From: Phoronis australis
Lineage: Eukaryota > Animalia > Phoronida
Length of the DNA: 64,000 bases
Direction of reading: 5' to 3'
Assembly: GCA_002633005.1 (NCBI GenBank)
Contig: NMRA01000208.1
Location: forward strand, 214,867 to 278,866
The translations under genes were made by a program, and so were the position numbers. The notes below the pieces were generated by a model. The model was not told the origin of the DNA and made no database searches. It worked only from the letters and a program-made list of their open reading frames with translations. How positions within the stretch are numbered: position 1 is the stretch's first letter; each line of letters starts with the position of its first letter. This document shows positions 2,660 through 28,600 of this stretch, one piece after another.

Positions 2660-3325
2660 GTTCGTTAGCTTCATATAAATACACTTCCTAAATTTAATTA
2701 AGAACGTGCAGATACAGCTATGGGCAAAATACAAAATTAAACTAAACTACCACTAGCAGACGCCACAGTAGTCTAAGTCGTCATTGTTAACCGTCCTCTT
2801 CACACTGAGAATGCAAACGCCAATTTTCAAAACCATCCTTAGAATGGTTTGGTTGACAAGAGGGTAGACACTAAAAAAGACTCAAAAACAGCAACAATTG
2901 CCACTAGGTGGCACAAAATATCTCAAATCCATCCGAAAACGGGAGGACAGCGACATCTCATGAATAGATGCTAATGTGCCAAATTCCATGAAAATCCGTT
3001 GTGGACCTTTGAAGATAGAGGTAAACAAAACAAGAGCAACGCAGAGCGTTGAAATGCACCCACTGCCACTACGAGGCGCCACAGTAGTCGAAATCATCGG
3101 AAAATCATCGTCAACCGTCCTCTACATAGTAAGCATATACATGCCAATTTTCACAATCATCCTTTGAGCGGTTTGGTTGATAGAGGGGTGGACGCACAAA
3201 AACAGACTCGAAAACACTAAAAATGGCCACTAGGTGATGCAAACTATGTCGAATCCATCTGAAAACTATGTGCCTACATACCAAATTTCATGAAAATCCC
3301 TTCAGGACTTGTGAAGATACAAAGG
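2660..3325. mobile_element. Fragment of the same Helentron/HINE-like family
   Basis: Subunits matching 19230-20650; internal terminus with CAACGC-AGA-GCGTTG hairpin near 3037. Confidence 0.65.
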
Positions 3326-3453: not shown

Positions 3454-4551
3454 CTCTTTCAACTCCAAGTAACTGTCGGCCATTGTGTCCCTGAACCCCA
3501 AGTAACTTAGCACACATGGGTTGAACTGAGGTGCTTGTTTTCAAAATTCCATAAACAATCCATTTATAATTGAATTTCAAAGTGTAATACACCAAAATGT
3601 AGAGAACAGAATGAACTTTATCTACAAATTCACCAAAATTAAAAAATCCCACTCTCACGTGATGCAGGTAACACCTGAAATGCCGGTGTTTGTTTGCCAA
3701 TTTGCCAATTCAATGTATCGTTTAAAGAATAAAAATGATTTATGAGTAACAGTGTCGTCAATATTCTTCAGTAAAATTTCTTAAGATACATTTTCGATCA
3801 TATTTCACATCTTCTATTTACATTTGAAGTTCATAAAGTGACTTAAATTTGGCGATCGTTAAGTTCAACGATTCAAATTTGTCCACTTCCGGTTGTGACT
3901 CACGCTTCGTTTGGGCGTTCAAATTAATTACCCTGACAATTTCACCGAATATTTCATCAACATAGAAATTTTTAAAGTACTCAACTTGCTTATCAGAACC
4001 ATCGTACACTCTAGAAGACTCCACATGTTTAGAAAATTTTCGAGGTTGTTGGAGTTAAACGGCGTTTGTTTGACCCAATTGCAAAATTCGCGACCTGTAA
4101 AGTTTTCCTCCGGTTCAAAGCCATGTAATTCAACTTCTTTGTCGTAATAGTCAACAAAATCTGGCCAGATATATAAGAATTCCTTTTTGGGTTATCTTGT
4201 ATATTAATTAAGTAAAAAATATACAAATTATTGCCAATTTCGTCATTTGAAAAGTCTACGTCTGAATCGCCGTCAGCCGACATTTTGTTTTCGCGAGTCA
4301 TCGATCTAAATTCTTGGAAAACCCCTTCAATAACTCACGTTACCTCTCAGCAACGAATCAGAAAAGCTGTTAGAAATGAAGGTAAGGCTATATTTAAATT
4401 TGTGACGTACACAAAAGAATTCCCCTAATCAACCAATCAAATATTCTGTTGCTTGGAAGTTCGGCATATCGTGAGACCGATAAAGTGGTCCACGGTGTTG
4501 AATGGAGGTAAGTTTCAGAGACCGCTTAAGCGGTCTGCGGTGTTGAAAGGG
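3454..4551 (-). mobile_element. Internally deleted piggyBac element with transposase remnant
   Basis: TTAA on both sides (3450-3453, 4552-4555). TIRs CTCTTTCAACTCC / GGTGTTGAAAGGG (11/13 match). Minus-strand peptides MSADGDSDVDFSNDEI and EYFKNFYVDEIFGEIVRVINLNAQ resemble the piggyBac N-terminal F.LF..DE....IV..TN.YA motif. Confidence 0.8.
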
Positions 4552-6721: not shown

Positions 6722-7352
6722 TAGGGTGAGCAAACCAATATGGCGGAAATTCAGCAAGAGCGAAATTTTGCCATTTTTCATGATTTTCACAAGCTCATAT
6801 CTATTAGCATACTAAGTGGTGGAAAATGAAAAGTATGCCAGTAAAATATTTAATTTTTCTTCTTTCTAATGATATCCATTACAAATAAATTGGACATTAA
6901 TGAGTATTTTTAAAAATTGAAGTAAAGCGAGCACTTCACNNNNNNNNNNNNNNNNNNNNNNNNNNNNNNNNNNNNNNNNNNNNNNNNNNNNNNNNNNNNN
7001 NNNNNNNNNNNNNNNNNNNNNNNNNNNNNNNNNNNNNNNNNNNNNNNNNNNNNNNNNNNNNNNNNNNNNNNNNNNNNNNNNNNNNNNNNNNNNNNNNNNN
7101 NNNNNNNNNNNNNNNNNNTATGGATTCCCAAATATAGTTGTCTAAACTTGCCATTTTCTGTGACCTGAAATTTCTGGGTGCCGTTTGCTGAAAAAAAGGC
7201 CATTTTTGAGGCTCTAAAATTCAAATAACTCGAGAACCACCGAACCGATTTGAAAAATTCAAAAAGTTTTATAAACGGCATGTCAAAAGCTATCATTTAA
7301 CACTCTTTTCAAGTGTTTCTGATGAAATTTGTATTTGGGTTTGCTCACCCTA
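6722..7352. mobile_element. Non-autonomous DNA transposon (TAGGG termini) spanning an N gap
   Basis: Perfect TIR TAGGGTGAGCAAACC / GGTTTGCTCACCCTA; direct repeat CATATAG at 6715-6721 and 7353-7359. Confidence 0.8.
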
Positions 7353-13900: not shown

Positions 13901-16900
13901 TCCCATAACTTGTTGCAGTGACTGGGTTGAGGTTCCTTGAGATTTGAAGGAAAGCATGCTCTACCATACTAATTTGACAAAAGAATCAAGATTTCGAAGA
14001 ACGGGTTAACACAGAGAACTAAGTGATTTTTATTTAAACAAGTTAGAGAAAGGCAATATTTTTGATGTATGATAACAGATTCTCTGCGAAAGTTTCCTCT
14101 CCACGAGAAAATGACGTTTGCAATGGTTTCATTAAGTTAGAAGCACGAAACTGTTGATTTATTTCAACATCAAACTTCATTCTTTACCCCCCCATTTACT
14201 GAGTGGACCAACCAAGAATGTTATTACATGCTCTAGGTATCATTAAATTAAACCTGCCATGTAAAGTTATCAATGTGTTAAATTCAGTAGACCTTTGAAC
14301 CTACCTAGGTATATATACTGTAAACTCACGGGTTAACGCCCATGCCCGGGTAATCGCCCATCCCGACTTTTTGTCAATTTTCGGTTTAAGCGCCCACTGC
14401 TTAAGTAATCGCCCTACTTTGTGCAAATTTTCACTTTAACACCCACCTGTCGGGTAATTGCCTATCCCTCATTTACCACTTACTGAACTTGAGCTTGAAC
14501 TCGTGCTATAGTTCAAAGCTTCACCTCAGGCTCAGATTTCCGTGTTTGTGGAAACACGGTGTGCTTGCACCTTTTTTAAACTTATCAACTGATCGTTTGT
14601 TAAATTAATATAGGCCTACTCAGTAGATTTTTATAGAAGTGGTGCTAGTCTACTACNNNNNNNNNNNNNNNNNNNNNNNNNNNNNNNNNNNNNNNNNNNN
14701 NNNNNNNNNNNNNNNNNNNNNNNNNNNNNNNNNNNNNNNNNNNNNNNNNNNNNNNNNNNNNNNNNNNNNNNNNNNNNNNNNNNNNNNNNNNNNNNNNNNN
14801 NNNNNNNNNNNNNNNNNNNNNNNNNNNNNNNNNNNNNNNNNNNNNNNNNNNNNNNNNNNNNNNNNNNNNNNNNNNNNNNNNNNNNNNNNNNNNNNNNNNN
14901 NNNNNNNNNNNNNNNNNNNNNNNNNNNNNNNNNNNNNNNNNNNNNNNNNNNNNNNNNNNNNNNNNNNNNNNNNNNNNNNNNNNNNNNNNNNNNNNNNNNN
15001 NNNNNNNNNNNNNNNNNNNNNNNNNNNNNNNNNNNNNNNNNNNNNNNNNNNNNNNNNNNNNNNNNNNNNNNNNNNNNNNNNNNNNNNNNNNNNNNNNNNN
15101 NNNNNNNNNNNNNNNNNNNNNNNNNNNNNNNNNNNNNNNNNNNNNNNNNNNNNNNNNNNNNNNNNNNNNNNNNNNNNNNNNNNNNNNNNNNNNNNNNNNN
15201 NNNNNNNNNNNNNNNNNNNNNNNNNNNNNNNNNNNNNNNNNNNNNNNNNNNNNNNNNNNNNNNNNNNNNNNNNNCCCTCTCGTAATTGCAAATAGTTTAT
15301 GTCAGCCGGGAATGAATCGCCAGTGTTTTTAATCCAGGAAACGAAATGTAGTCTCGTTTACTGATCTGAAACAGTACATGCTGATACGGTAAGTGGACTG
15401 CAATTCGAGTTTCATAAAGCTCTGTGGTATGACATTTTGCAGCGTGCTAATATATTTGAAAACACCTGAGTTTTTAGCAATGTTCTCGTGAAATCACCCG
15501 TTCAAAGTCGAATTCCTGTTTCTGTTTGGGCAGTGAGAAACTTTACGCTGTTTGACCGAAGTTACAAGTTCCGTGCTTGAATGAACACCCCGTGTCCTTG
15601 CCCAGTTCAGCTAAAACTTGGACGTAACAACCCACTGCTTGGGTAATCGCACACCCCTGATTTTTTGCCAATTTTCGGTTTAAGCGCCCTGCTTGGTAAT
15701 TGCCCATCCTCTGCATCAGGGTTTCCCAATTTAAACACCCAGGGCGTTAACCTGTGAGTAAGGAGAGAAAAAACAAAGAGTGAGACAGTCCACCAAGAGC
15801 GAGACAGATGCTGTTGGTGACACAAAGTATTGAATTCTTTTACAAGGTCAGCGAGGGCTACAGGTCAGTGCGCCTAAAGAATGAATACTGGAATTGACCG
15901 TCTTATTGACAAATTTTGCCAAAAAATCAGTGGTTGTCTGGAACCGCACCTCAAGAGTCTCCCTTGTTGATTCCATTATGAATAAAATGAAAAAACAAAC
16001 TGAAGCAACGAAAATTGATAGCCAAACAGATGGACAACAGGAAATTCACAGTGCCAACTGTCACCGTTAGTCCTGTGTAAGTTTGGGGCAGCAAGCTCTA
16101 ACACTAGAATGCATGGGTCGTGCGCAGACATACCAATCCTCTGCTTCTATGATCAGAGGTGCATATTCTTGAAACTAAATCATGGCCAATCATGAACAGG
16201 AAACACTGAGTAGTTATAATCAATAATTACAGGAACAGTTTTCCACATAAAGGCTGCGGGATTATAAAGTAGAAATAATGAAAACAATTCTGCGAAATGA
16301 TGCTAACGTGTCTCAGCAAAGTCAAGAAAAAAGCCTGGAAGAAACAAAAAGTCCCCAAATTTATGGAATGAACAATAGCAAATCCGGGAAATTATAATAA
16401 ATACAATTGATAAAGTTTGCAGCTGACAGTATGAAATCCATTTCATCCACATGTAATCCTGTATTGACAGAGACAAGCAACTGAAGAGAAATGTATTTAA
16501 CTACAGCAACTAAGTTACTCACTTAAATCAAAGAAAATCTAGTATGATTTTCCATCAAACAGGCGAATCAGTGAAAGAAATGTACAGTCCCCAGCTAGAT
16601 TATTTGTAACCAGTTTACAAGGTAACTATGCAAACAATTCTAATTCACTATGTCCACCACAGAAGGTAATTACCTTTACATAAAAGGAACAGGACAATAA
16701 ACCTTAGGTATTATGCAGGCAATCAAATCACCAGCTCACTATTACAATGTAAACAATTGGGGGCAATATTGGTGTCTGCAGTAACAATTGTGAACCAAAA
16801 GAAAATGGAGCAGAGCAGATCTGGATGAGAATAAAGCAGTCTACCCATCAAATGTCCTCTAAATAAAATTAACATTGTTTTGATGAATGTATCACTCATT

Positions 16901-19636
16901 TATTAGTTGAAACAAGTTGTTAAAGCAAGCACAGGGTAAATTGTTGTATAACTATGTGAATTTAGCCATCCTACTTGAAGTGCTCATCTGCTTATTTAAT
17001 TAAACAATTGATTCCACCTCATGTAGTTAAATCTCAAGGGCAGTTTAGTGGACAGCCTACTTTGATGTCTGGTAATGAACTGGGGAAATGTAATTAACGT
17101 TTACCATGAAAATAAACAAGAACAACAGGGAGCATTGAAATGCACCCACGAATGCATCAATGCATCACAAATGGTATGCTTTCAGGGTTGCTTATTTGTG
17201 TCATAAAATGGGCACTAGATGGCGCAAAAACATACAATCCGTCGGAAAATGGGAACATGTCATTGCTTCTTTAATAGAAAGCTATGCACCAAATTCCAAA
17301 TTTCATAGAAATTCGCCAAGGAACTTCAGAGAAACAAAGGAAAACAGAATAAAATGAAATTGCCACTAGGGGGCATAGTGTTCATTGGATCCGCTAGAAA
17401 GTCGTCATTGTCTGTTGTTCGCTTCATATAAGTACACTTACTAAATTCAATAAAGATGCTCCAGNNNNNNNNNNNNNNNNNNNNNNNNNNNNNNNNNNNN
17501 NNNNNNNNNNNNNNNNNNNNNNNNNNNNNNNNNNNNNNNNNNNNNNNNNNNNNNNNNNNNNNNNNNNNNNNNNNNNNNNNNNNNNNNNNNNNNNNNNNNN
17601 NNNNNNNNNNNNNNNNNNNNNNNNNNNNNNNNNNNNNNNNNNNNNNNNNNNNNNNNNNNNNNNNNNNNNNNNNNNNNNNNNNNNNNNNNNNNNNNNNNNN
17701 NNNNNNNNNNNNNNNNNNNNNNNNNNNNNNNNNNNNNNNNNNNNNNNNNNNNNNNNNNNNNNNNNNNNNNNNNNNNNNNNNNNNNNNNNNNNNNNNNNNN
17801 NNNNNNNNNNNNNNNNNNNNNNNNNNNNNNNNNNNNNNNNNNNNNNNNNNNNNNNNNNNNNNNNNNNNNNNNNNNNNNNNGTGCCAACTGTCACCGTTAG
17901 TCCTGTGTAAGTTTGGGGCAGCAAGCTCTAACACTAGAATGCATGGGTCGTGCGCAGGCATACCAATCCTCTGCTTCTATGATCAGAGGTGCATATTCTT
18001 GAAACTAAATCATGGCCAATCATTAACAGGAAACACTGAGTAGTTATAATCAATAATTACAGTAACAGTTTTCCACATAAAGGCTGCGGGATAATAAAGT
18101 AGAAATAATGAAAACAATTCTGCGAAATAATGCTAACGTGTCTCAGCAAAGTCAAGAAAAAAGCCTGGAAGAAACAAAGAGTCCCCAAATTTATGGAGTG
18201 AACAATAGCAAATAGGAAATTATAATAAATACAATTGATAAAGTTAGCAGCTGACAGTATGAAATCCATTTCATCCACATGTAATCCTGTATTGACAGAG
18301 ACAAGCAACTGAAGAGAAATGTATTTAACTACAGCAACTAAGTTACTCACTTAAATCAAAGAAATGATTTTCCATCAAGCAGGCGAATCAGTGAAAGAAA
18401 TGTACAGTACCCAGCTACATCATTTGTAACCAGTTTACAAGGTAACTATGCAAATAATTCTAATTCACTATGTCCACCACAGGAACAACAAGTACCTTAC
18501 AGAAGTAATTGTCTTTACATTGAAGGAATAGGACAATAAACCTTAGGTATTATGCAGGCAATCAAATCACCAGGTCACTATTACAATGTAAACAAATGGG
18601 GACAAGATTGGTGTCTGCAGTAACAATTGTGAACCAAAAGAAAATGGAGCAGAGCAGAGCTGGATGAGAATAAAGCAGTCTACCCATCAAATGTCCTCTA
18701 AATAAAATTAACATTGTTTTGATGAATGTATCACTCATTCATTAGTTGTTAAAGCAAGCACAGGGTAAATTGTGGTATAACTATGTGAATTTAGCCATCC
18801 TACTTGAAGTGCTCATCTGCTTATTTAATTAAACAATTGATTCCACCTCATCTAATTCAATCTCAAGGCAGTTTAGTGGACAGCCTACTTTGATGTCTGA
18901 TAATGAACTGGGGAAATGTAATTAACGTTTACCATGTAAATAAACAAGAGCAACAGGGAGCGTTGAAATGCACCCACGAATGCATCAATGCATCACAAAT
19001 GGTATGCTTTTAGGGTTGCTTATTTGTGTCATAAAATGGGCATACAATCAGTCCGAAAATGGGAACATGTCATTGCTTCTTTAATAGAAAGCTATACACC
19101 AAATTCCAAATTTCATAGAAATTCGCCAAGGAACTTCAGAGAAACAAAGGAAAACAGAATAAAATGAAATTGCCACTAGGGGGCATAGTGTTCATTGGAT
19201 CCGCTAGAAAGTCGTCATTGTCTGTTGTTCGCTTCATATAAGTACACTTACTAAATTCAATAAAGATGCTCCAGAAGGTTTATGAGATACAGCTATGGGC
19301 GCAAAACAAAACTATCACTAGGAGGTGCTAGAGAAGTCAAAGTCGTCATCATCAACTGTCCTCTTCACACTGAGAACATATACGCCAAATTTCAAAACCA
19401 TCCTCAGAATGATTTGGTTGACAGAGAGGTGGACGCCAAAAAATACACTCGAAAACAGCAAAAATGGCCACTAGGTGGCGCAAATTAAGAATGCTGATTG
19501 TTTTGATAATTTCAGACACCACCTCATCAGTTACCTGCAGTCATCATAGATGTCCCTCCTTCTTGTCTTTCCAATATATTTACCAAAATTTTTTATTTAT
19601 TTATTTATCTTTAATTCAATTTGTTTATCCAATTTG

Positions 19637-19693
<57 letters not shown>

Positions 19694-22600
19694 AATTACC
19701 TTGATTCCATCCAAAAACAGGAGGATAGCGTCATCTCATCAATAGATGCCCGTATTCAAAATTTTATGAAAATCTGTTGAGGACCTTTGAAGATACAGAG
19801 GTAAACGTAAAACTTAAATTGCCACCAGGGGGAATACCAGTACTCAGATCCATCCCAAAATCATCGTTGTTCGTTGTCAACAACATATAAAGACACTTCT
19901 TAAATTTAGTAAAGAACCTACAAACGGTTTAGCAGATAGAGCTTTGGGCGCAAAAAAGAAACAGCCATTAGGAGGTGCCACAGTGATTGAAGTCATCGGA
20001 AAATCATCGTCAGCCGTCGACTTCATAGTAAAAACATACATGCCAATTTTTACAATTATCCTGAAAGAGGTTTGGTTTATAGAAGGGTGGACGCTTAAAA
20101 GCAGACCCGAAAACAGTAAAAATGGCCACTAAGGTGGCGCAAACTAGGTTGAATCCGTCTGAAAATGGAAAGATAGCGTCACCTCACTAACAGGAGCCTG
20201 TACACCAAGTTTTATGAAAATACGTTGAGGACCTTCAAAGATACAGAGGAAAACGTAAAAAAATAAAACTGCCACTAGGTGGTACACCAGTAGTCAGATC
20301 TGTCCGAAAATCGTTGTTGTCCATTGTCAACATCATATAAATGCACTTATTAAATTAAGTAAAGATGCTGCAAAACAGTTTAGGATAAAAAGCCATAGGC
20401 GCAAAAAAAACTGCCACTAGGAGGCGCCACAGTAGTTGAAGTCATCGGAAAATCATCGCCAACCATCCTCTTCATAGTAAGAACATACATGCCAATTTTC
20501 ACAATCATGCTTAGAGCGGTTTGGTTGATAGAGGGGTGGACGTCAAAAAACAGACTCGAAAACAGTAAAAATGGCCACTAGATGGTGCGAACTACGTCGA
20601 ATCCATCCGAAAACGGGAGGATGTTGTCGTTTCACTAATAGATGCATATATACCAAAATTTCATGAAAATACCTTGAGGACCTTTGAAGATACAGAGGTA
20701 AACGTAAAAAAACTAAAATTGCCACTTGGGGGCACACCGGTATTCGGATCCGTCCGAAAGTTCGCTCATGCCGTCCCATCCATGAAAGGAACACGTGTGC
20801 AAAATTTCATGAGCATACATCAATCGGTTTGGAGATAGAGCAGTGGACGCCAGACACCGGACGCATGCGGCTTGACAGATGCAGATGACGGCATAATGCG
20901 TCCACATATAAATATGTGGGTGCATAAAAATTAGGATTCCAAACACTAAAGGTAAATCCTATGACATTGCAATCATAATAAGCTAAGAATAATACAAAAA
21001 ATTCAATACTTCAATCTGTGAAACAATGCAAGCTCCAACACAAACAAGCAGCACACTGTCACAACAGTACAATCCTTCAGTTTCCACACGCACTTTAGAA
21101 CCACGACTCACTCTTTCTTGTTTACCTCCATGATATCATTTTCAACATGATTATTTTGATTAGGCAAAATATTATGTTATAAATACTTTCTCTACGCTTC
21201 AATAAGTTTCTACAGTCTAACTTCAGTCACCGGCAAAACTTAATTTGGCTAAGCATTGGCACCCTAAAAAAGCTACATTAATGTATGTAGCAATCACCAT
21301 CGGGAAGAATTACACTAGAAAAATAGACAGAAAAGGCAATAACGGGCAATTGTCAGGTGATACCTCTAGAGTCTGCCAAGATTCCTAAAGATCTATTAAG
21401 GGACACCGCAGGTGTTTCAATTCTTTAGGTTCAGATACACCGACTACATGCACAGAGCATGATTACCAACTTCAGCCCGAGAACTAGGGGCAAAATGGAC
21501 ATAAAGATCGGGAGAATAGAAATAAGTCCTTGAATTTTTTAATCATCAGTGTTTCCCACTCGTATCTCTATCCCTTGCTTATTTCCTTAACATTTTTTAC
21601 ATTCATATTTTGCAATTCTAAATAAATTAATAATTGATTTGCCTTACCTTGCCATCTCCAGTGACACAGAACAGAGTCTGTTCCCCACCAACAAGTTGCA
21701 CAGGTCGCAACGTGGCCAGTGCCTCACAAGTCAGAGGTAACTTCACTTTGGCCCCCTCGATACCTCCCAACTGGCCACGGTGGTTGTGTCCCCAGCCCCA
21801 GATTTGCCCACTGCCACCCCAGGACAGAGTCCAGTCATCTGGGCGTCTGAAAAAAAACAGATGTGCAGAGAATGTTAATCGACAACAGGGAGCTCTGAGG
21901 ATACACATGACCGTTGAGTGCTAATGCACGCCTCAAAATCTGATTGGCTGGCACATTTCTTGCCTTCATATACTACTTGCATGAATTCCCTATTATACTT
22001 GAAAACAGGGTTTTATGTCCAAACTACAATCGATTTGCATGTTTGGAACACGCGCGTTTTCATGCTTGCATTGTTAAAACTGATGATAAAATAGGGCATT
22101 GTGTCCCAAACAACAATGCACAACAATCATTTTGCAGCGCTGCCAAAAGTGTGCAAGTAGTGAACTGGCTAACAGGTGTCACTTTTCTTTGAATAAAAAC
22201 TGGCAACAGGTGTCAAACGTTTTGTGAGTCATTGTCAAACAGTTCAAATATTTTATTGTAATCTTCCAAATGAAACATCTTCATGGAATGCATAACACAG
22301 AAAATTTTCCAGTTAGCATAACTTTAATTCATGAACAATTATTCAGTTCTATGCAAATTTCAAACTTTTTACGGACAGACTGTCAGACATATTTGTAGAC
22401 AAAAAGTCCACTTGGAACTGCAGGGAGTAGGATCTCTTTGTCGGTCATGATGGTAAATGACAGTCCACACTCAAATGGTCTCCCTTCTTCATCAATGCAT
22501 GCGATATCATAGAGATAAACTCCGTTGTACGAGAACACCTTAATGACACCAGAACACAGACAAAATATTCGGTCATCACCATCAAAAGCAACGCAGCTCA

Positions 22601-25600
22601 CAAAATCATCACACGCAAGTTTTCGTTTGAACTTGAACGCACCGTCAAAGATCATTACATTAGGGCTGGTATCATCAGAAACAATGATGTCGCCATCAAA
22701 GCCAAAACAAATGCCATTGGGTGCCACAACGCCATCTGGTGTTCTCAAAGTAATCTTCCTTTTAATTTGACTAGCTCTGTCATACAAAAACGCACTGTCA
22801 TGACCAGTCCAAAATAATTGTTCCTTGTTCATAACACAGTAAAAGATAGCATCATTATGAACCAACTCCTCTATCAGCTTCCCATTTGCTGTCAAGATCT
22901 GTATTCTCTCGCCCACAATTTCACTGTATTCATCATCTACGCCATCAGTGCTTCTGTCTGAGGAGCCAAACACGCCTCCAACGCTGTCATTAGTCAAATC
23001 ATCCGCGCTGTCCACCTCGGTTTTGGTTGTCAAGTCTTGACCAGCTGATTGCTGGTTATTATGGCGGCCTGAAGATACACTACAATAATCACCATCGCAG
23101 GACACGTCCCCATCAGCTGAACTACCACTCTCATCTTCGTCATCTGCCTCTCCTCCATTACCGCTCGTATTTGCATTGGCTGACTTATTGGCAGTCTTCT
23201 TGTATCCATTGTGCTCACTTCCTTCAAATGAGATATCCTCCTGCAACATTAGCCCGAGAATCTCCTCGGCGTTTCTCTCTAAGCTCGCATCATCCTCAGT
23301 CTTGTTACATGCTCTGCTAGTGATCTCCCCTGACTCACTGCCAGCGCTCACGTACTTGTCGTCACTGTTCTCACTCGATGATGAACTAGTACTTTGAACA
23401 TTAGAACTGACGTCTGTCTCAGCACTTCCACCCGCACTTCCTGAAGATGAGTCATCACAACTTGGACTGGCCAAATTGAAGCTGTCAGCAGCACTGTCTT
23501 TGATAGGTGTGCTAGTTCTGAGAGCGTCATTATCTTGGAAATACCCCACTTCAGACAGCATTCCTTCTCCAGGATCAATGGAGCTGAACAGGACATCGTT
23601 CACAGTGTAATCACCAAGTGTAGCTAAATCAAGCTGGGAGACATGAACATCACCCTTGGTGTATCGATCCTTGTCAAAACAGCCTTTCCAAATGCAGCAG
23701 TTCTTTGAAGATGCGTAGTGAAACGAGAACTTCTCATGGAATGCAATGCAGGACTTGATCATGGCAGCGTCTTGTTCAGAGGTCTCTCCAAAGTGAGACA
23801 CAGACGGTATTTTGTTGCCCATCACTTCTGCGACTCTTAACAGAATTCTCAAGTGAGTGATGTCAGACGCGTCCATGTCATCGTTAGGCTCACAGTTGAG
23901 TATCTCCTCTACACTGCTCACATTTAGTTTCTTCATCAACTCTTGCATACACTCCTCTATCTTGTCCCACTCAATATTATCCCAGTCCCAGTCTTTACAT
24001 GACAACATGGCTGCATAAAGTGACCACCTCATGCTGGTGCTGGTAACCACGGCAATCTCAGGCTCCTCATCCTCAGTCACACTGAGGCACAGCGGTGCGC
24101 AGTCGTTGGCAACGGCCAGTTTACAACCCAATTGCCCATCTGGTGTATACTTGTTGATGGTACAGTCTTTTGGATTAGACAAGTACAAACATCCAGATGA
24201 GTCCCTTGCAGCCGACATGAACAACAGGGAGTCTTCTCGGCATTTTTCTGATGACTTCCTGACTGGAAAATTGGGCAGCACGTTCCAGCGACAGATGTAG
24301 GCTGTGCCTTCAGACATGGTGAAAGCAGCAGCAACACTACCAAAGCTCTGCGGTCGAAATGTCAGCACATATATCCTACTGGTCACTTTGTCAAGCCTAC
24401 TCTCCAGAGTTCTTTTCTTGCAGTCTATAACATTCGCAGAGAAGTCAACATCTGAGGCAAACAACAAGACAATTTCAGCCTGATGGCCTGCGATGAGGCT
24501 TGAATTCTGGATTTCAGTGAGCAAGGAAGCCTGTTGTGAACTATCTGTGTTCTGAGTTGGAAACTGAAATGTACTAGGAGAGAAAGTACCGGCCAGCTTA
24601 GGTTCGCATTCACCGCCTGTCTTTTCACCATTTGGGTTCTGAGGAGACTTGCATGAAAAATCCTTTGAGAAGAAGTCACCGCCAGCTATATCTGCTTCAT
24701 CACTGTCAATCAAAAGGCTGACGCTGTCAGTGTACTTAATAAAACTGTTGTCGCTCCCTTCACCAGCGTTTTGAGCGCTAACACTCATAACTAGAAAACC
24801 CCAAGATGCTCAAATAAATCAAAGAGAAAACAAATGTTATGCACATGCATAACACAGTCACACCTGACATGCATGACGTCAAAAAGTTTGGCGCCAAATT
24901 TTAATACTATTTCTTGCTACAAGTAGCGTGTGCACTGCCAGTGTCATCCTCAAATACAGTTAGCCACCTTGTACAGTCATGTGGTTGCTGTTTTGCTTTC
25001 TCGAGCATATTTTGCACATTTGGTGCCGTGACCCTTACTTATTATGGATTCATTACACATTATATCCACCAGAGGGCGACGGGTCACCATCTCAGAATTG
25101 CATGAAAATTAACTGGGACAATTATCATGATACACAATGATTTCCCAAAAATTTTCATTTACCTCCGTCAAAGGGTCTTCGAGACATGGGTGTAACACCA
25201 ATTTTTGCCCTCGCGAGTTGAAACTGATTTTTTTAGATTTTGGAGGTTTCTAGCTTCAAAATTAATCATTGGATTGTACTGAAAATGCTTGTAAGTGGAT
25301 TAACATGAAACCAGGTTGTTAGAATATGTCACCAGAATTCATCCAGCAAATGTTGTAACTGAACTGAGGGGGCCCAAAAATTATGATTGTGAATCCTATA
25401 ATCGCCTTTTGACTGGCCTCAAAATATTAAATAAAAGCAAGTAAGGCACTTTAAACAGTACACACCATGGATTTTTGCACATTTTAAATTACCGGTGGCC
25501 ACAGACTAAATGTATGACGGACAATTTAGCTAAACCCATGTTTATTTTGTGTAATTAGCTCTAAATTTTGATTTTTCTTTCAATTTTGCCAATTTTCACA

Positions 25601-28600
25601 TTTCCCGCCATGTGACGTCATGGGTTGAACACAAGATATCAGTGACTAGCCTTGAACAATGGCGGAGAGCAGGGAATTTGAAAGTGACGACGATTATGAG
25701 CAAGAATTGAACGAATACTATGAAGAAACGTACGGGAATGATGGCCAGGATGAGGAAATGGGGTTGCACGAAAGCGAGAACAAGTTTAATGTGCTTCCGG
25801 CTGCGTACTTTTCTACTTTGAGCCTTATGAACTGGATCCTCCCGCGAGAGAAGCGGCCTCGGGCTCGGCGAGTCANGCCCTCGCGAGTTGAAACTGATTT
25901 TTTTTAGATTTTGGAGGTTTCTAGCTTCAAAATTAATCATTGGATTGTACTGAAAATGCTTGTAAGTGGATTAACATAAAACCAGGTTGTTAGAATATGT
26001 CACCAGAATTCATCCAGCAAATGTTGTAACTGAACTGAGGGGGCCCAAAAATTATGATTGTTAATCCTATAATCGCCTTTTGACTGGCCTCAAAATATTA
26101 AACAAAAGCAAGTAAGGCACTTTAAATGCCATTAAGTATACTCCTTGTTTCTGTTAAATTCAAAATGTAAAAAACAATTTTATTTTGGTGATCAGTGTTG
26201 GAGTTGTGTGGCAATAAATGCATTGACAGAAGTAACACAATTTCTTCAGTCATTTTTGGTACACAAAAACAGTGTCTGCAGTTTTCAATGATATTGAATT
26301 TCTTTTCATGTAATGACACATGTATTATGATTATATTACCAAAAACCATATAATAAAGGAAAAAATGTCATGTGACCCTGTATGTTCCGATGCCTGTTTC
26401 TTAAAAAGTGACACTGGGTATAAATCCTACAATATCACGTGTAAATATTATGTTATAGACCCTTCTGACCACACTCAAGTCATTAATGGTCAAATGTAAC
26501 AAGTGGTTAAACTTATTGCATCACAGCCAGTAACACAGTCACCATCAACACCCAATCACAGTGGTGTTCTATTCAATCTACTGTGTTACCCGTGGCAGAA
26601 ATACTTCTACCAGTGGATCTTTAAGAATATTGCTATTAGGCATTTTTGTTAGCTATTTTCTTGCAGTGACACAGTACTGTGCAAAAAGGCCACTTCACAT
26701 TATTAAGTGTTGAAATTGTGTTTTTTGTGTCGTTAAATTACATCCATGCACTCATAGGGTATATGTTTGTAACCTGAACTTTGAATTGTGAACAGCTGGA
26801 TAGATCTGTGAACAGCTGCATAGATTTGTGAACAGCTGGATAGATCTGTGAACGCTATCAATTGTTCAAACCACTCACGGTGATCCAAGCTACTAAACGT
26901 GATAAATAGTGACGTTTCTACCAACTTTTAAAATGACCAACCTACCAAACTATGGTAGAAAAATACTTATTTCTCATGTAAGATGTCCAGACTATCCATT
27001 TATATTCTATTAGCGTCTTGAAATTGAAACTTACGCAGTCTATAGTCAGTTATAATCAGTTTCAGACTCTTACTCTGCACAACAAAAAATTCATTTTTAA
27101 AAAGAAACCATAATTTCTTGATGTTCTTAAAAGTCAAATGTTTTATACCTCCGAAGAAGCAGTAAGTCACATGCATCACAGGGTCAAGTAAGATATCATG
27201 GGCAACCTATTTTTTCCCATATATGGCACGTTTTTAGTGCCAATGGAGCAAACTCAAATGACTCGATAGTGGAACCCAGCACCCAAAAGCATTGCGATGA
27301 TTTTATTAACCGCAAAATCTATTTTCACACTGTTGATGCAAAACGCTGTGTCTGAAATTTGATAAATATAACAAAGGCCAAAATCCCCACTCTTCAGAGT
27401 CAAGGGATGGTTCTCACAAGTTTCAAATCAGGTACTTTGTGTAAAGGGCCCAAGCCACGTGGCCTGTCCACATCTAATGCAATTAGACATTGGACCACTT
27501 GCAATCTTTCTACTCATTCGCACGATATTTTTAAATCTTTCACATGATAATATTTGTGGGATGTCAAAAATTTTATGACTGATCTAGGCAATACTCGTCG
27601 ATATCCAAATCAATATACCAGTCTTTCAAAGTCCATCAAAGCATGAATTGTGCTTTGGCCCAGCCTTCCTGAGCTTTAATCCAGCCTACCTCTTCAATCA
27701 CCATCAAGGTATGAAATGTGCTTTAATCCAGCCTTCCTGTTCAACCACTATCAACGTATGAATTGTGCTTTAATCCAGCTTACCTGTTCAACCACAGTAA
27801 CAGCTGTTCATCCTGTTCCTGGCGAAATATCTCGTGTTTCAGGTGATCATCACTGACGGCCTCCTCATCTGAGCAGATCTCGTGTACCTTCTTGCGCACC
27901 TCCTTAATGAAGCTGGCGGGGAACACAGTGCGCTGTTCCAGGGCTGTCGCCACTCGTGCTGCCATGCAGTACCGACGGAACCACGCCCACTTGTGCGATT
28001 CAAGACAGTGTGCCAGTGAGTCGAGACCGAGATCAGAGGCGAGGGCCACCAACACCTGAAATGAAAGGCGAAATAATTTTCTCAAAGAAATTTAAAACAC
28101 AATATATTACATTTTATAATTACCAAATTTGGAAACTAAGAACTGGAAAATAGAGCCACTTATTTTTGCGTCATAACCCACCACGTAACATTATTTCACG
28201 AAAACCAGTTGAGACTTTTCTGTTTTTTGTTCATTGTATAAATTCATAGTTCATAAATTCATAATTTATGTTCAGTCAACAGCTTATCCATCAATTACAA
28301 AATGGTCGTTTCAAAAAAACAAGGGAGTCATATCCTAGTCCTAGCAGCACTTTTGCACTATTAACTCACCTTGAAGAAGGGACTGTGCATCAAATGTTTG
28401 CCACTACGTACAATGGGGTCCTCATACTCGTACTGTCTTTGCAGTGCCTCAGGAAGTCCCTTCACTAGAGACGCCAGCGCTGTACCACTCAAAGACTAAA
28501 ACAGACAGTTGAGGAGAAACGTGCAATGTAGTTAACACTGCGTAGTTATAATGTATTTAATCAGCATACATCTAAAGGTAAGTGTTAAAACAGAAAAACT

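What the first reader, a model, noticed from the sequence alone, without database searches (positions are those of the whole stretch)
22383..24788. Intact intronless gene nested in a HERC2 intron on the same strand
Seen: an 801-codon ORF with no stop or frameshift sits in the 5.9-kb intron between HERC2 exons 27784-28055 and 21648-21846, on the host strand, while the host's own exons are all under 460 bp. It has no recognisable transposase or RT motifs. Known: nested genes are usually antisense to the host, and intronless copies often arise by retroposition. Inference: this is a functional, lineage-specific gene derived from the TRIM-NHL family (E3 ligase and RNA-binding relatives such as TRIM2/3/71), lodged inside another E3 ligase gene and possibly co-regulated with it or interfering with it.
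Basis: partly seen in the sequence, partly recalled or inferred. Interest (0 to 1): 0.8.

Follow-up and report, generated by a model that had tools for sequence, protein, structure and literature searches.

The report
Split NHL propeller gene inside HERC2
An animal carries, inside an intron of the ubiquitin-ligase gene HERC2, a separate intron-less gene that is transcribed and under purifying selection, and its protein is predicted to fold as a six-bladed NHL propeller whose usual RNA-binding face is interrupted by a 377-residue insert, so it likely works as a protein-binding adaptor rather than as a ligase or RNA binder.

Summary
An 801-codon ORF (22383-24788, minus) lies in a HERC2 intron confirmed by RNA joints. 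It is transcribed on the host strand without splicing, at 4.5 to 8 times host exon depth in two RNA runs, and is absent from a third. It is single-copy by DNA depth, linked to the HERC2 exon by overlapping contigs, and under purifying selection (7 replacement against 19 silent variants, pN/pS about 0.14). Same-strand, intronless, sample-restricted nested genes are a described, ordinary class, and nothing ties this gene functionally to HERC2. The unusual part is the protein. It has no RING or B-box. Its NHL blades lie in two pieces, residues 188-249 and 627-800, which a structure predictor joins strand to strand into one propeller (score 0.84, best control 0.00). A 377-residue insert (helical domain plus acidic linker) therefore sits in the blade-2 b-c loop, on the face that binds RNA in Brat and TRIM71; here those loops are acidic. 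No homologue was found. A 13-bp repeat flanking the gene hints at retroposition. Verdict: a real orphan TRIM-NHL derivative with an undescribed split propeller; its function is inferred only.

The parts
22383..24788 (-). Nested intronless ORF, 801 aa
   Evidence: RNA depth 30-90 in X6 and X7, no joints inside; pN/pS about 0.14
24507..24788 (-). aa 1-94, Ser/acidic low-hydrophobicity N-terminus; no RING, B-box or coiled-coil pattern
   Evidence: composition; only 2 Cys and no His in aa 1-94; no Pfam hit
24273..24506 (-). aa 95-172, probable filamin-type Ig domain (by eye only)
   Evidence: resemblance to the recalled filamin repeat pattern and position just before the NHL; Pfam and PDB searches gave no filamin hit, so inconclusive
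24042..24227 (-). aa 188-249, NHL blade 1 and strands a-b of blade 2
   Evidence: NHL repeat match at aa 193-221 and 195-218; predicted pairing with the C-terminal blades
23544..24041 (-). Insert part 1, aa 250-415: predicted helical domain, no fold match
   Evidence: models (pLDDT about 53-67 over aa 270-350); fold searches unclear; 1 replacement and 4 silent variants
22911..23543 (-). Insert part 2, aa 416-626: acidic, Ser-rich, probably disordered linker
   Evidence: 21% D/E, 20% S, 18% hydrophobic; 4 replacement and 7 silent variants
22386..22910 (-). aa 627-801, strands c-d of blade 2 and NHL blades 3-6
   Evidence: PDB hits Mei-P26, TRIM2, Brat, TRIM3 at E 2e-6 to 2e-5; pLDDT 87 in the complex model
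24845..24857 (.). 13-bp direct repeat, upstream copy (candidate target-site duplication; overlaps a palindrome at 24835-24854)
22288..22300 (.). 13-bp direct repeat, downstream copy, just after an ATTAAA signal and a short A run
22252..22328 (-). Two polyadenylation-signal hexamers (ATTAAA at 22328, AATAAA at 22257); RNA tapers out over this region
21847..27783 (-). Host HERC2 intron (phase 2), just before the RLD3 domain
   Evidence: RNA joints; HERC2 identity

Best explanation
This is an independent, single-exon, transcribed gene inside a HERC2 intron that encodes a ligase-less NHL-repeat protein, likely derived from a TRIM-NHL gene, whose two sets of blades are predicted to close into one six-bladed propeller around a 377-residue insert, so that it likely acts as a protein-binding adaptor or decoy and not as an E3 ligase or RNA binder. 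Shown: the ORF, its nesting, its unspliced same-strand transcript, its on/off pattern across three runs, single copy number, purifying selection, NHL similarity and the lack of a RING/B-box pattern. Predicted: strand b of blade 2 (aa 244-249) pairs with strand c (aa 628-633), which puts the insert in a b-c loop, by definition the top face. Inferred: the basic RNA-binding face has been replaced by an acidic surface carrying a new helical domain and a long acidic linker, which recruit protein partners, while the bottom face and the probable filamin domain keep ancestral contacts. Also inferred: the gene arrived as a retrocopy and is tolerated on the host strand because it has no introns and is expressed in only some tissues or stages.
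For: Transcript: X6 and X7 cover about 22200-24840 on the minus strand, mean ORF depth 61 and 47 against 7.7 and 10.6 on the adjacent HERC2 exon; no joint inside the ORF or between it and a host exon. X8 has depth 0 in 11 of 11 bins over the ORF, where about 160-190 reads were expected from its HERC2 level. Copy number and place: one X1 contig at depth 40 covers the ORF, against 34 on the HERC2 exon; contigs 21601-22140, 22111-22245 and 22216-25200 overlap by 30 bases. Selection: 26 listed ORF variants, 7 replacement and 19 silent, p about 2e-6; folded parts 2 against 12; worst case with all 10 hidden rows as replacements p 0.001. Fold: aa 168-252 with aa 622-801 scored 0.84, best of 3 controls 0.00; runs agree in at least 69% of contacts, partner pLDDT 70-74; the mark was reached by 51 of 78 solved complexes and 2 of 108 mismatched pairs (eukaryotes: 71 of 105 and 2 of 126); best contacts 244-249 with 628-633, and 189-196 and 775-782 both in the interface. 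Top face: b-c and d-a loops form the electropositive RNA face (PMC4015489); here these loops hold 11 K/R against 20 D/E by my strand assignment. Origin: a 13-bp repeat flanks the gene 57 nt before the ATG and 82 nt after the stop (20 of 2000 shuffles, 67 of 2722 real window pairs).
Against: NHL propellers are solved structures, so the complex pass may come from memory of the fold; it was run on two cut pieces, without the insert. The expected closing strand (aa 174-178) is not among the confident contacts. The full-length single-sequence model failed (pLDDT 35). The filamin call has no tool support, and no Pfam NHL hit was obtained, so TRIM-NHL ancestry rests on weak PDB hits. No partner, localisation or protein-level evidence exists. 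An intact 13-bp duplication implies a young insertion, yet no parent copy at 92% identity or more was laid, so the repeat may be chance or regulatory. The zero in X8 could be a gene absence in another individual rather than tissue specificity.
Confidence: 0.6

Rival explanations
1. The protein still regulates mRNAs like Brat, Mei-P26 or TRIM71, binding RNA through a remodelled or lateral surface, with the acidic linker as an RNA-mimicking autoinhibitory lid.
For: Best solved relatives are RNA-binding TRIM-NHL domains; NHL domains use different solutions for RNA recognition (PMC5908797, abstract and passages); the insert sits on the RNA face.
Against: Propeller 25 K/R against 37 D/E and whole protein 65 against 132; top loops 11 against 20; PMC4015489 ties RNA binding to a positive top face. 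No electrostatic surface was computed.
Confidence: 0.15
2. The nesting matters functionally: the gene is co-regulated with HERC2 or dampens it by interference or intronic polyadenylation.
For: Same strand; poly(A) signals lie on the host strand inside the intron; both genes are higher in X6 and X7 than in X8.
Against: HERC2 is spliced across the gene in all three runs; its exon depth is 7.7 and 10.6 where the gene is on and 1.6 where it is off, so no repression is visible; the gene is off while HERC2 is on in X8. In Drosophila nested pairs diverge in expression (PMC5174743, PMC3814207). Only three runs.
Confidence: 0.1
3. The ORF is an alternative last exon of HERC2, giving a fusion that replaces RLD3 and HECT with the NHL module.
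For: A weak acceptor entering at 24783 would be in frame with the phase-2 host donor; an earlier unchecked note proposes such a case elsewhere in this genome (e1-10416579).
Against: No such joint is listed, against 18 canonical joints in three runs; no loose ends at the 5' end among those shown; ORF depth is 4.5 to 8 times host exon depth. The stronger acceptor at 24808 is out of frame with the host. About a fifth of each run was read, and joints need 3 reads to be listed.
Confidence: 0.04
4. The ORF is cargo of a multicopy mobile element or virus, or was placed here by mis-scaffolding.
For: A multicopy element end and a single-N seam lie 660-1100 bp upstream of the ATG; a MITE-like repeat lies downstream.
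Against: Flat single-copy DNA depth over the ORF; overlapping contigs link it to the HERC2 exon; no long terminal repeats around it; nothing in viral or metagenome contigs. The link runs through a repeat at 22111-22245 and is contig overlap, not one long read.
Confidence: 0.05

Closest known systems
TRIM-NHL proteins, class VII / subfamily C (TRIM2, TRIM3, TRIM71/LIN-41, Brat, Mei-P26; PDB 7nyq, 7qrv, 4zlr, 6fpt)
   Same: NHL blades with best PDB matches in this group; predicted six blades ending at the C-terminus after strand c; a probable filamin domain just before the propeller, as in LIN-41 (PMC5908797).
   Different: No RING, B-box or coiled coil; the propeller is discontinuous, with 377 residues in a top-face loop; top loops acidic, not basic; similarity only at E about 1e-6 in PDB and below detection in Pfam.
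TRIM-derived genes that lost part of the tripartite motif, such as malin/NHLRC1 (PMC3503706)
   Same: Arises from a TRIM-NHL gene by domain loss; a malin-fragment cluster was among the nearest Atlas look-alikes (0.83, a lead only).
   Different: Malin keeps its RING and a continuous propeller; this protein has neither.
Same-strand nested genes of Drosophila (PMC3814207, PMC5174743)
   Same: Single exon, narrow expression, often of retroposed origin, inside a long intron of a large broadly expressed host.
   Different: No difference in kind; only the host (HERC2) has no such report in my search.
Beta-propellers with inserted domains in a blade loop (integrin alpha I domain, recalled; paper search seen as listing only)
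   Same: A separate domain looped out of a propeller that still closes.
   Different: Not reported for an NHL propeller in my searches; the insert here is longer, partly disordered and has no fold match.

Membership tests
TRIM-NHL | N-terminal RING finger | tested here: not met
   2 Cys and no His in aa 1-94; no Pfam hit; no upstream exon joined in RNA
TRIM-NHL | [quoted passage not shown] | tested here: not met
   Same Cys/His count; no Pfam hit; N-terminal 94 aa low in hydrophobic residues
TRIM-NHL | Six-bladed NHL propeller at the C-terminus | tested here: met
   PDB hits, blade-1 match, complex model 0.84 against 0.00; met as a prediction, and the propeller is split
TRIM-NHL | Filamin-type Ig domain before the NHL (optional in the family) | tested here: inconclusive
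   Pattern seen by eye at aa 95-172; no Pfam or PDB hit; not folded alone
RNA-binding NHL domains (Brat, LIN-41, Mei-P26) | Electropositive top face | tested here: not met
   Top loops 11 K/R against 20 D/E by hand strand assignment, and the insert sits there; residue count only, no surface potential computed
Retrogene | Intronless copy of an identified intron-bearing parent | not testable with these tools
   Intronless shown; no genome is held and no parent was found
Retrogene | Target-site duplication and poly(A) remnant | tested here: inconclusive
   13-bp repeat at both ends, p about 0.01-0.025, found post hoc; only four A's before the downstream copy
Nested gene | Whole transcription unit inside a host intron that is spliced out | tested here: met
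   RNA span about 22200-24840 inside intron 21847-27783; host joint seen in 3 of 3 raw-read RNA runs
Mobile-element cargo | Multiple copies, terminal repeats, transposase or RT | tested here: not met
   Single-copy depth, no long flanking repeats, no such Pfam family

The most novel reading that the evidence does not exclude
A retroposed TRIM-NHL fragment was rebuilt into a new protein: its RNA-binding face was replaced by a 377-residue insert holding a helical domain of no known fold, giving the first split NHL propeller in an animal. It is made only in some tissues (possibly germline), where it would act as a ligase-dead decoy or adaptor that diverts partners of the canonical TRIM-NHL repressors.
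Probability: 0.3. Interest if true: 0.65.

Novelty: new variant of a known kind. Interest (0 to 1): 0.42.

Why it matters
The nesting is ordinary. The protein is a clean natural case of an RNA-binding propeller whose functional face has been taken over by a large insertion while the fold is kept under purifying selection. It shows one way orphan genes arise from recognisable parts and why they escape Pfam and whole-protein searches. It also offers a simple test of whether an NHL propeller can be switched from RNA to protein ligands. The audience is specialist, and no function is shown.

Tried and rejected
Homologue searches found nothing: whole protein (7991 candidates, none at E 0.001), aa 95-415 among shorter proteins (428, none at 0.1), aa 626-801 (198, none at 10); proteins longer than 1402 aa were not searched. 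The 1.84-billion representative search gave one weak bacterial-type NHL repeat protein. Metagenome and viral contig scans: 105 and 7 pattern matches, none confirmed. These libraries are poor in animal proteins, so the blanks do not prove the gene is an orphan. No genome is held, so paralogues and the orthologous intron could not be checked. Full-length AlphaFold2 without alignment failed and its fold searches were uninformative. The helical insert alone (pLDDT 48) gave best Z 5.5 and no Foldseek hit; the Atlas gave no usable hit. A sequence-profile test of the blade-2 junction was confounded by blade 1 and is inconclusive. No Rfam match in the intron. X5 (RNA by guess, contigs) had no ORF contig, which is no evidence. 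The run search listed no RNA holder; the RNA evidence comes from runs added by species label. The 5' end could not be resolved: depth fits an abrupt end near the acceptor at 24808 or a taper to about 24835 equally, so a very short leader exon or spliced leader is not excluded. Paper searches with no relevant hit: HERC2 nested gene, NHL large insertion, TRIM71-like expansion; the library lacks most subscription papers and I read no supplements.
Full report
Observation. The ORF is as described: 22383-24788 on the minus strand, 801 codons, open throughout, with a chance probability near 4e-24. The surrounding gene is HERC2: the exon after the intron matches the start of human RLD3 (E 5e-40) and an upstream exon matches the DOC domain (E 2e-16). 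RNA reads join 27784 to 21846 with canonical ends in all three raw-read RNA runs (9, 8 and 1 reads), so the 5937-nt intron is real.

Is the placement an artefact? The intron has a single N at 25876 with a 250-bp near-identical duplication around a multicopy element end, which looks like an assembly seam or a heterozygous transposon. This does not affect the ORF. In DNA run X1 one 4285-base contig covers 22216-25200 and runs about 1300 bases further, and it overlaps by 30 bases with a chain of contigs reaching the HERC2 exon at 21648-21846. Where the extra 1300 bases lie was not shown. Depth is 40 on the ORF and 34 on the exon (7.3 and 5.2 in X2, same sample), flat across the ORF, which fits one copy and no close paralogue. 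X1 and X2 may be the source of the assembly, so they are not independent of it.

Expression. In X6 and X7 stranded reads cover about 22200-24840 in the same orientation as HERC2, with no joint inside the ORF or to a host exon. Mean ORF depth is 61 and 47, against 7.7 and 10.6 on the adjacent exon, so the transcript is independent of HERC2. In X8 the ORF has depth 0 in 11 of 11 bins although HERC2 is read at 1.6; about 160-190 reads were expected. The tissues are unknown, and X6 and X7 share the same two alleles, so they may be one animal or one pool. X8 may be another tissue or an individual without the gene. About a fifth of each run was read.

Selection. Of 40 variant rows shown, 26 lie in the ORF (10 further rows were not shown). 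Seven are replacements and 19 silent: pN/pS 0.10-0.16, p about 2e-6 at a transition bias of 4; folded regions 2 against 12, linkers 5 against 7. If all 10 hidden rows were replacements, p is still 0.001. The insert is itself constrained (helical part 1 against 4). Four of the variants seen in about half the RNA reads also stand in the X1 contig at this locus, which argues for alleles rather than a paralogue.

Protein. Pfam gives nothing at cut-off. PDB sequence search places aa 626-801 with Mei-P26, TRIM2, Brat and TRIM3 (E 2e-6 to 2e-5), then TRIM71. A separate NHL blade is matched at aa 193-221. Reading the strands by eye gave blade 1 (188-218), two strands of blade 2 (232-249), a break of 377 residues, the other two strands of blade 2 (from 627) and blades 3-6 to the C-terminus. 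I tested this by folding aa 168-252 with aa 622-801 as two chains: score 0.84, best of 3 controls 0.00, at least 69% contact agreement, partner pLDDT 70-74; the mark was reached by 51 of 78 solved complexes and 2 of 108 mismatched pairs. The tightest contacts are 244-249 with 628-633, the pairing predicted beforehand, and 189-196 and 775-782 are both in the interface, as ring closure needs. Because NHL propellers are solved, the pass may reflect likeness to them, and the closing strand at 174-178 expected from LIN-41 (PMC5908797, passages) was not confidently placed. By the definition in PMC4015489 (passages), b-c and d-a loops form the top face, which is electropositive and binds RNA in Brat. 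Here the insert is in a b-c loop and the top loops carry 11 basic against 20 acidic residues. The insert has a predicted helical part (aa 250-370) with no fold match and an acidic Ser-rich part. Residues 95-172 resemble a filamin repeat by recalled pattern only. There is no RING or B-box pattern.

Mechanism. Most likely a ligase-less adaptor or decoy: the propeller is kept as a platform, the RNA face is replaced by a new protein-binding module, and expression is restricted. The steps after the fold prediction are inference; no partner is known. Rivals are retained RNA binding with an acidic lid (0.15), a functional link to HERC2 (0.1), mobile cargo or mis-scaffolding (0.05) and a HERC2 fusion exon (0.04).

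Origin. A 13-bp direct repeat, found only twice in the window, lies 57 nt before the ATG and 82 nt after the stop, the second copy just after ATTAAA and four A's, and RNA coverage starts inside the first copy. Such a match arises in 20 of 2000 shuffles and 67 of 2722 real window pairs, and was found post hoc. It suggests a target-site duplication, but an intact one implies a young insertion and no close parent was seen, so retroposition stays plausible, not shown.

Comparison and novelty. Same-strand nested genes are 28.7% of nested genes in D. melanogaster, 71.5% intronless, tissue-specific and enriched for retrocopies (PMC5174743 and PMC3814207, passages), so the arrangement is ordinary. TRIM-derived genes that lost tripartite parts are known (malin; PMC3503706, passages); class VII architecture was checked in PMC8251876 (passages). 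The protein fails TRIM-NHL membership on RING and B-box but is built from that family's C-terminal module. I found no paper on an NHL propeller split by a large insertion or on a gene nested in HERC2, and no homologue, in libraries that cover animals poorly. Verdict: new variant of a known kind, interest 0.42.

Noticed in passing
window 25450-25875: End of a multicopy element inserted at a TTTAAA site, with the start of a plus-strand ORF at 25659; RNA depth 100-200 on both strands with many different flanks. A single N at 25876 and a 250-bp duplication (25207-25455, 25877-26126) suggest a heterozygous insertion or assembly seam.
   Followed up: partly
window 22016-22250: Short, very high-copy repeat between the nested gene and the HERC2 exon (X1 depth about 1700 in bin 22081-22200).
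   Followed up: no
window 27625-27810: 47-bp tandem copies that duplicate the HERC2 exon end and donor region; the reads seen use the first donor at 27784.
   Followed up: partly
window 24835-24854: Palindrome (two 9-bp arms, 2-nt spacer) at the 5' edge of the transcript, overlapping the upstream 13-bp repeat; possible promoter element. No TATA box in 24790-25200.
   Followed up: no
window 2885-3287, 15979-16899, 17329-18738, 19355-20958: Several decayed copies of one repeat family with similar translated pieces in downstream HERC2 introns; two plus-strand frames tested had no Pfam hit.
   Followed up: partly
window 3821-4334: Broken coding-like fragments on the minus strand, one with a weak DDE_Tnp_1_7 transposase hit (E 0.049, below cut-off).
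   Followed up: partly
window 6940-7118, 14657-15274, 17465-17880, 62903: Assembly gaps (N runs) inside other HERC2 introns.
   Followed up: no
window 26783-26853: 20-bp tandem repeat, about three and a half copies, in the same intron.
   Followed up: no
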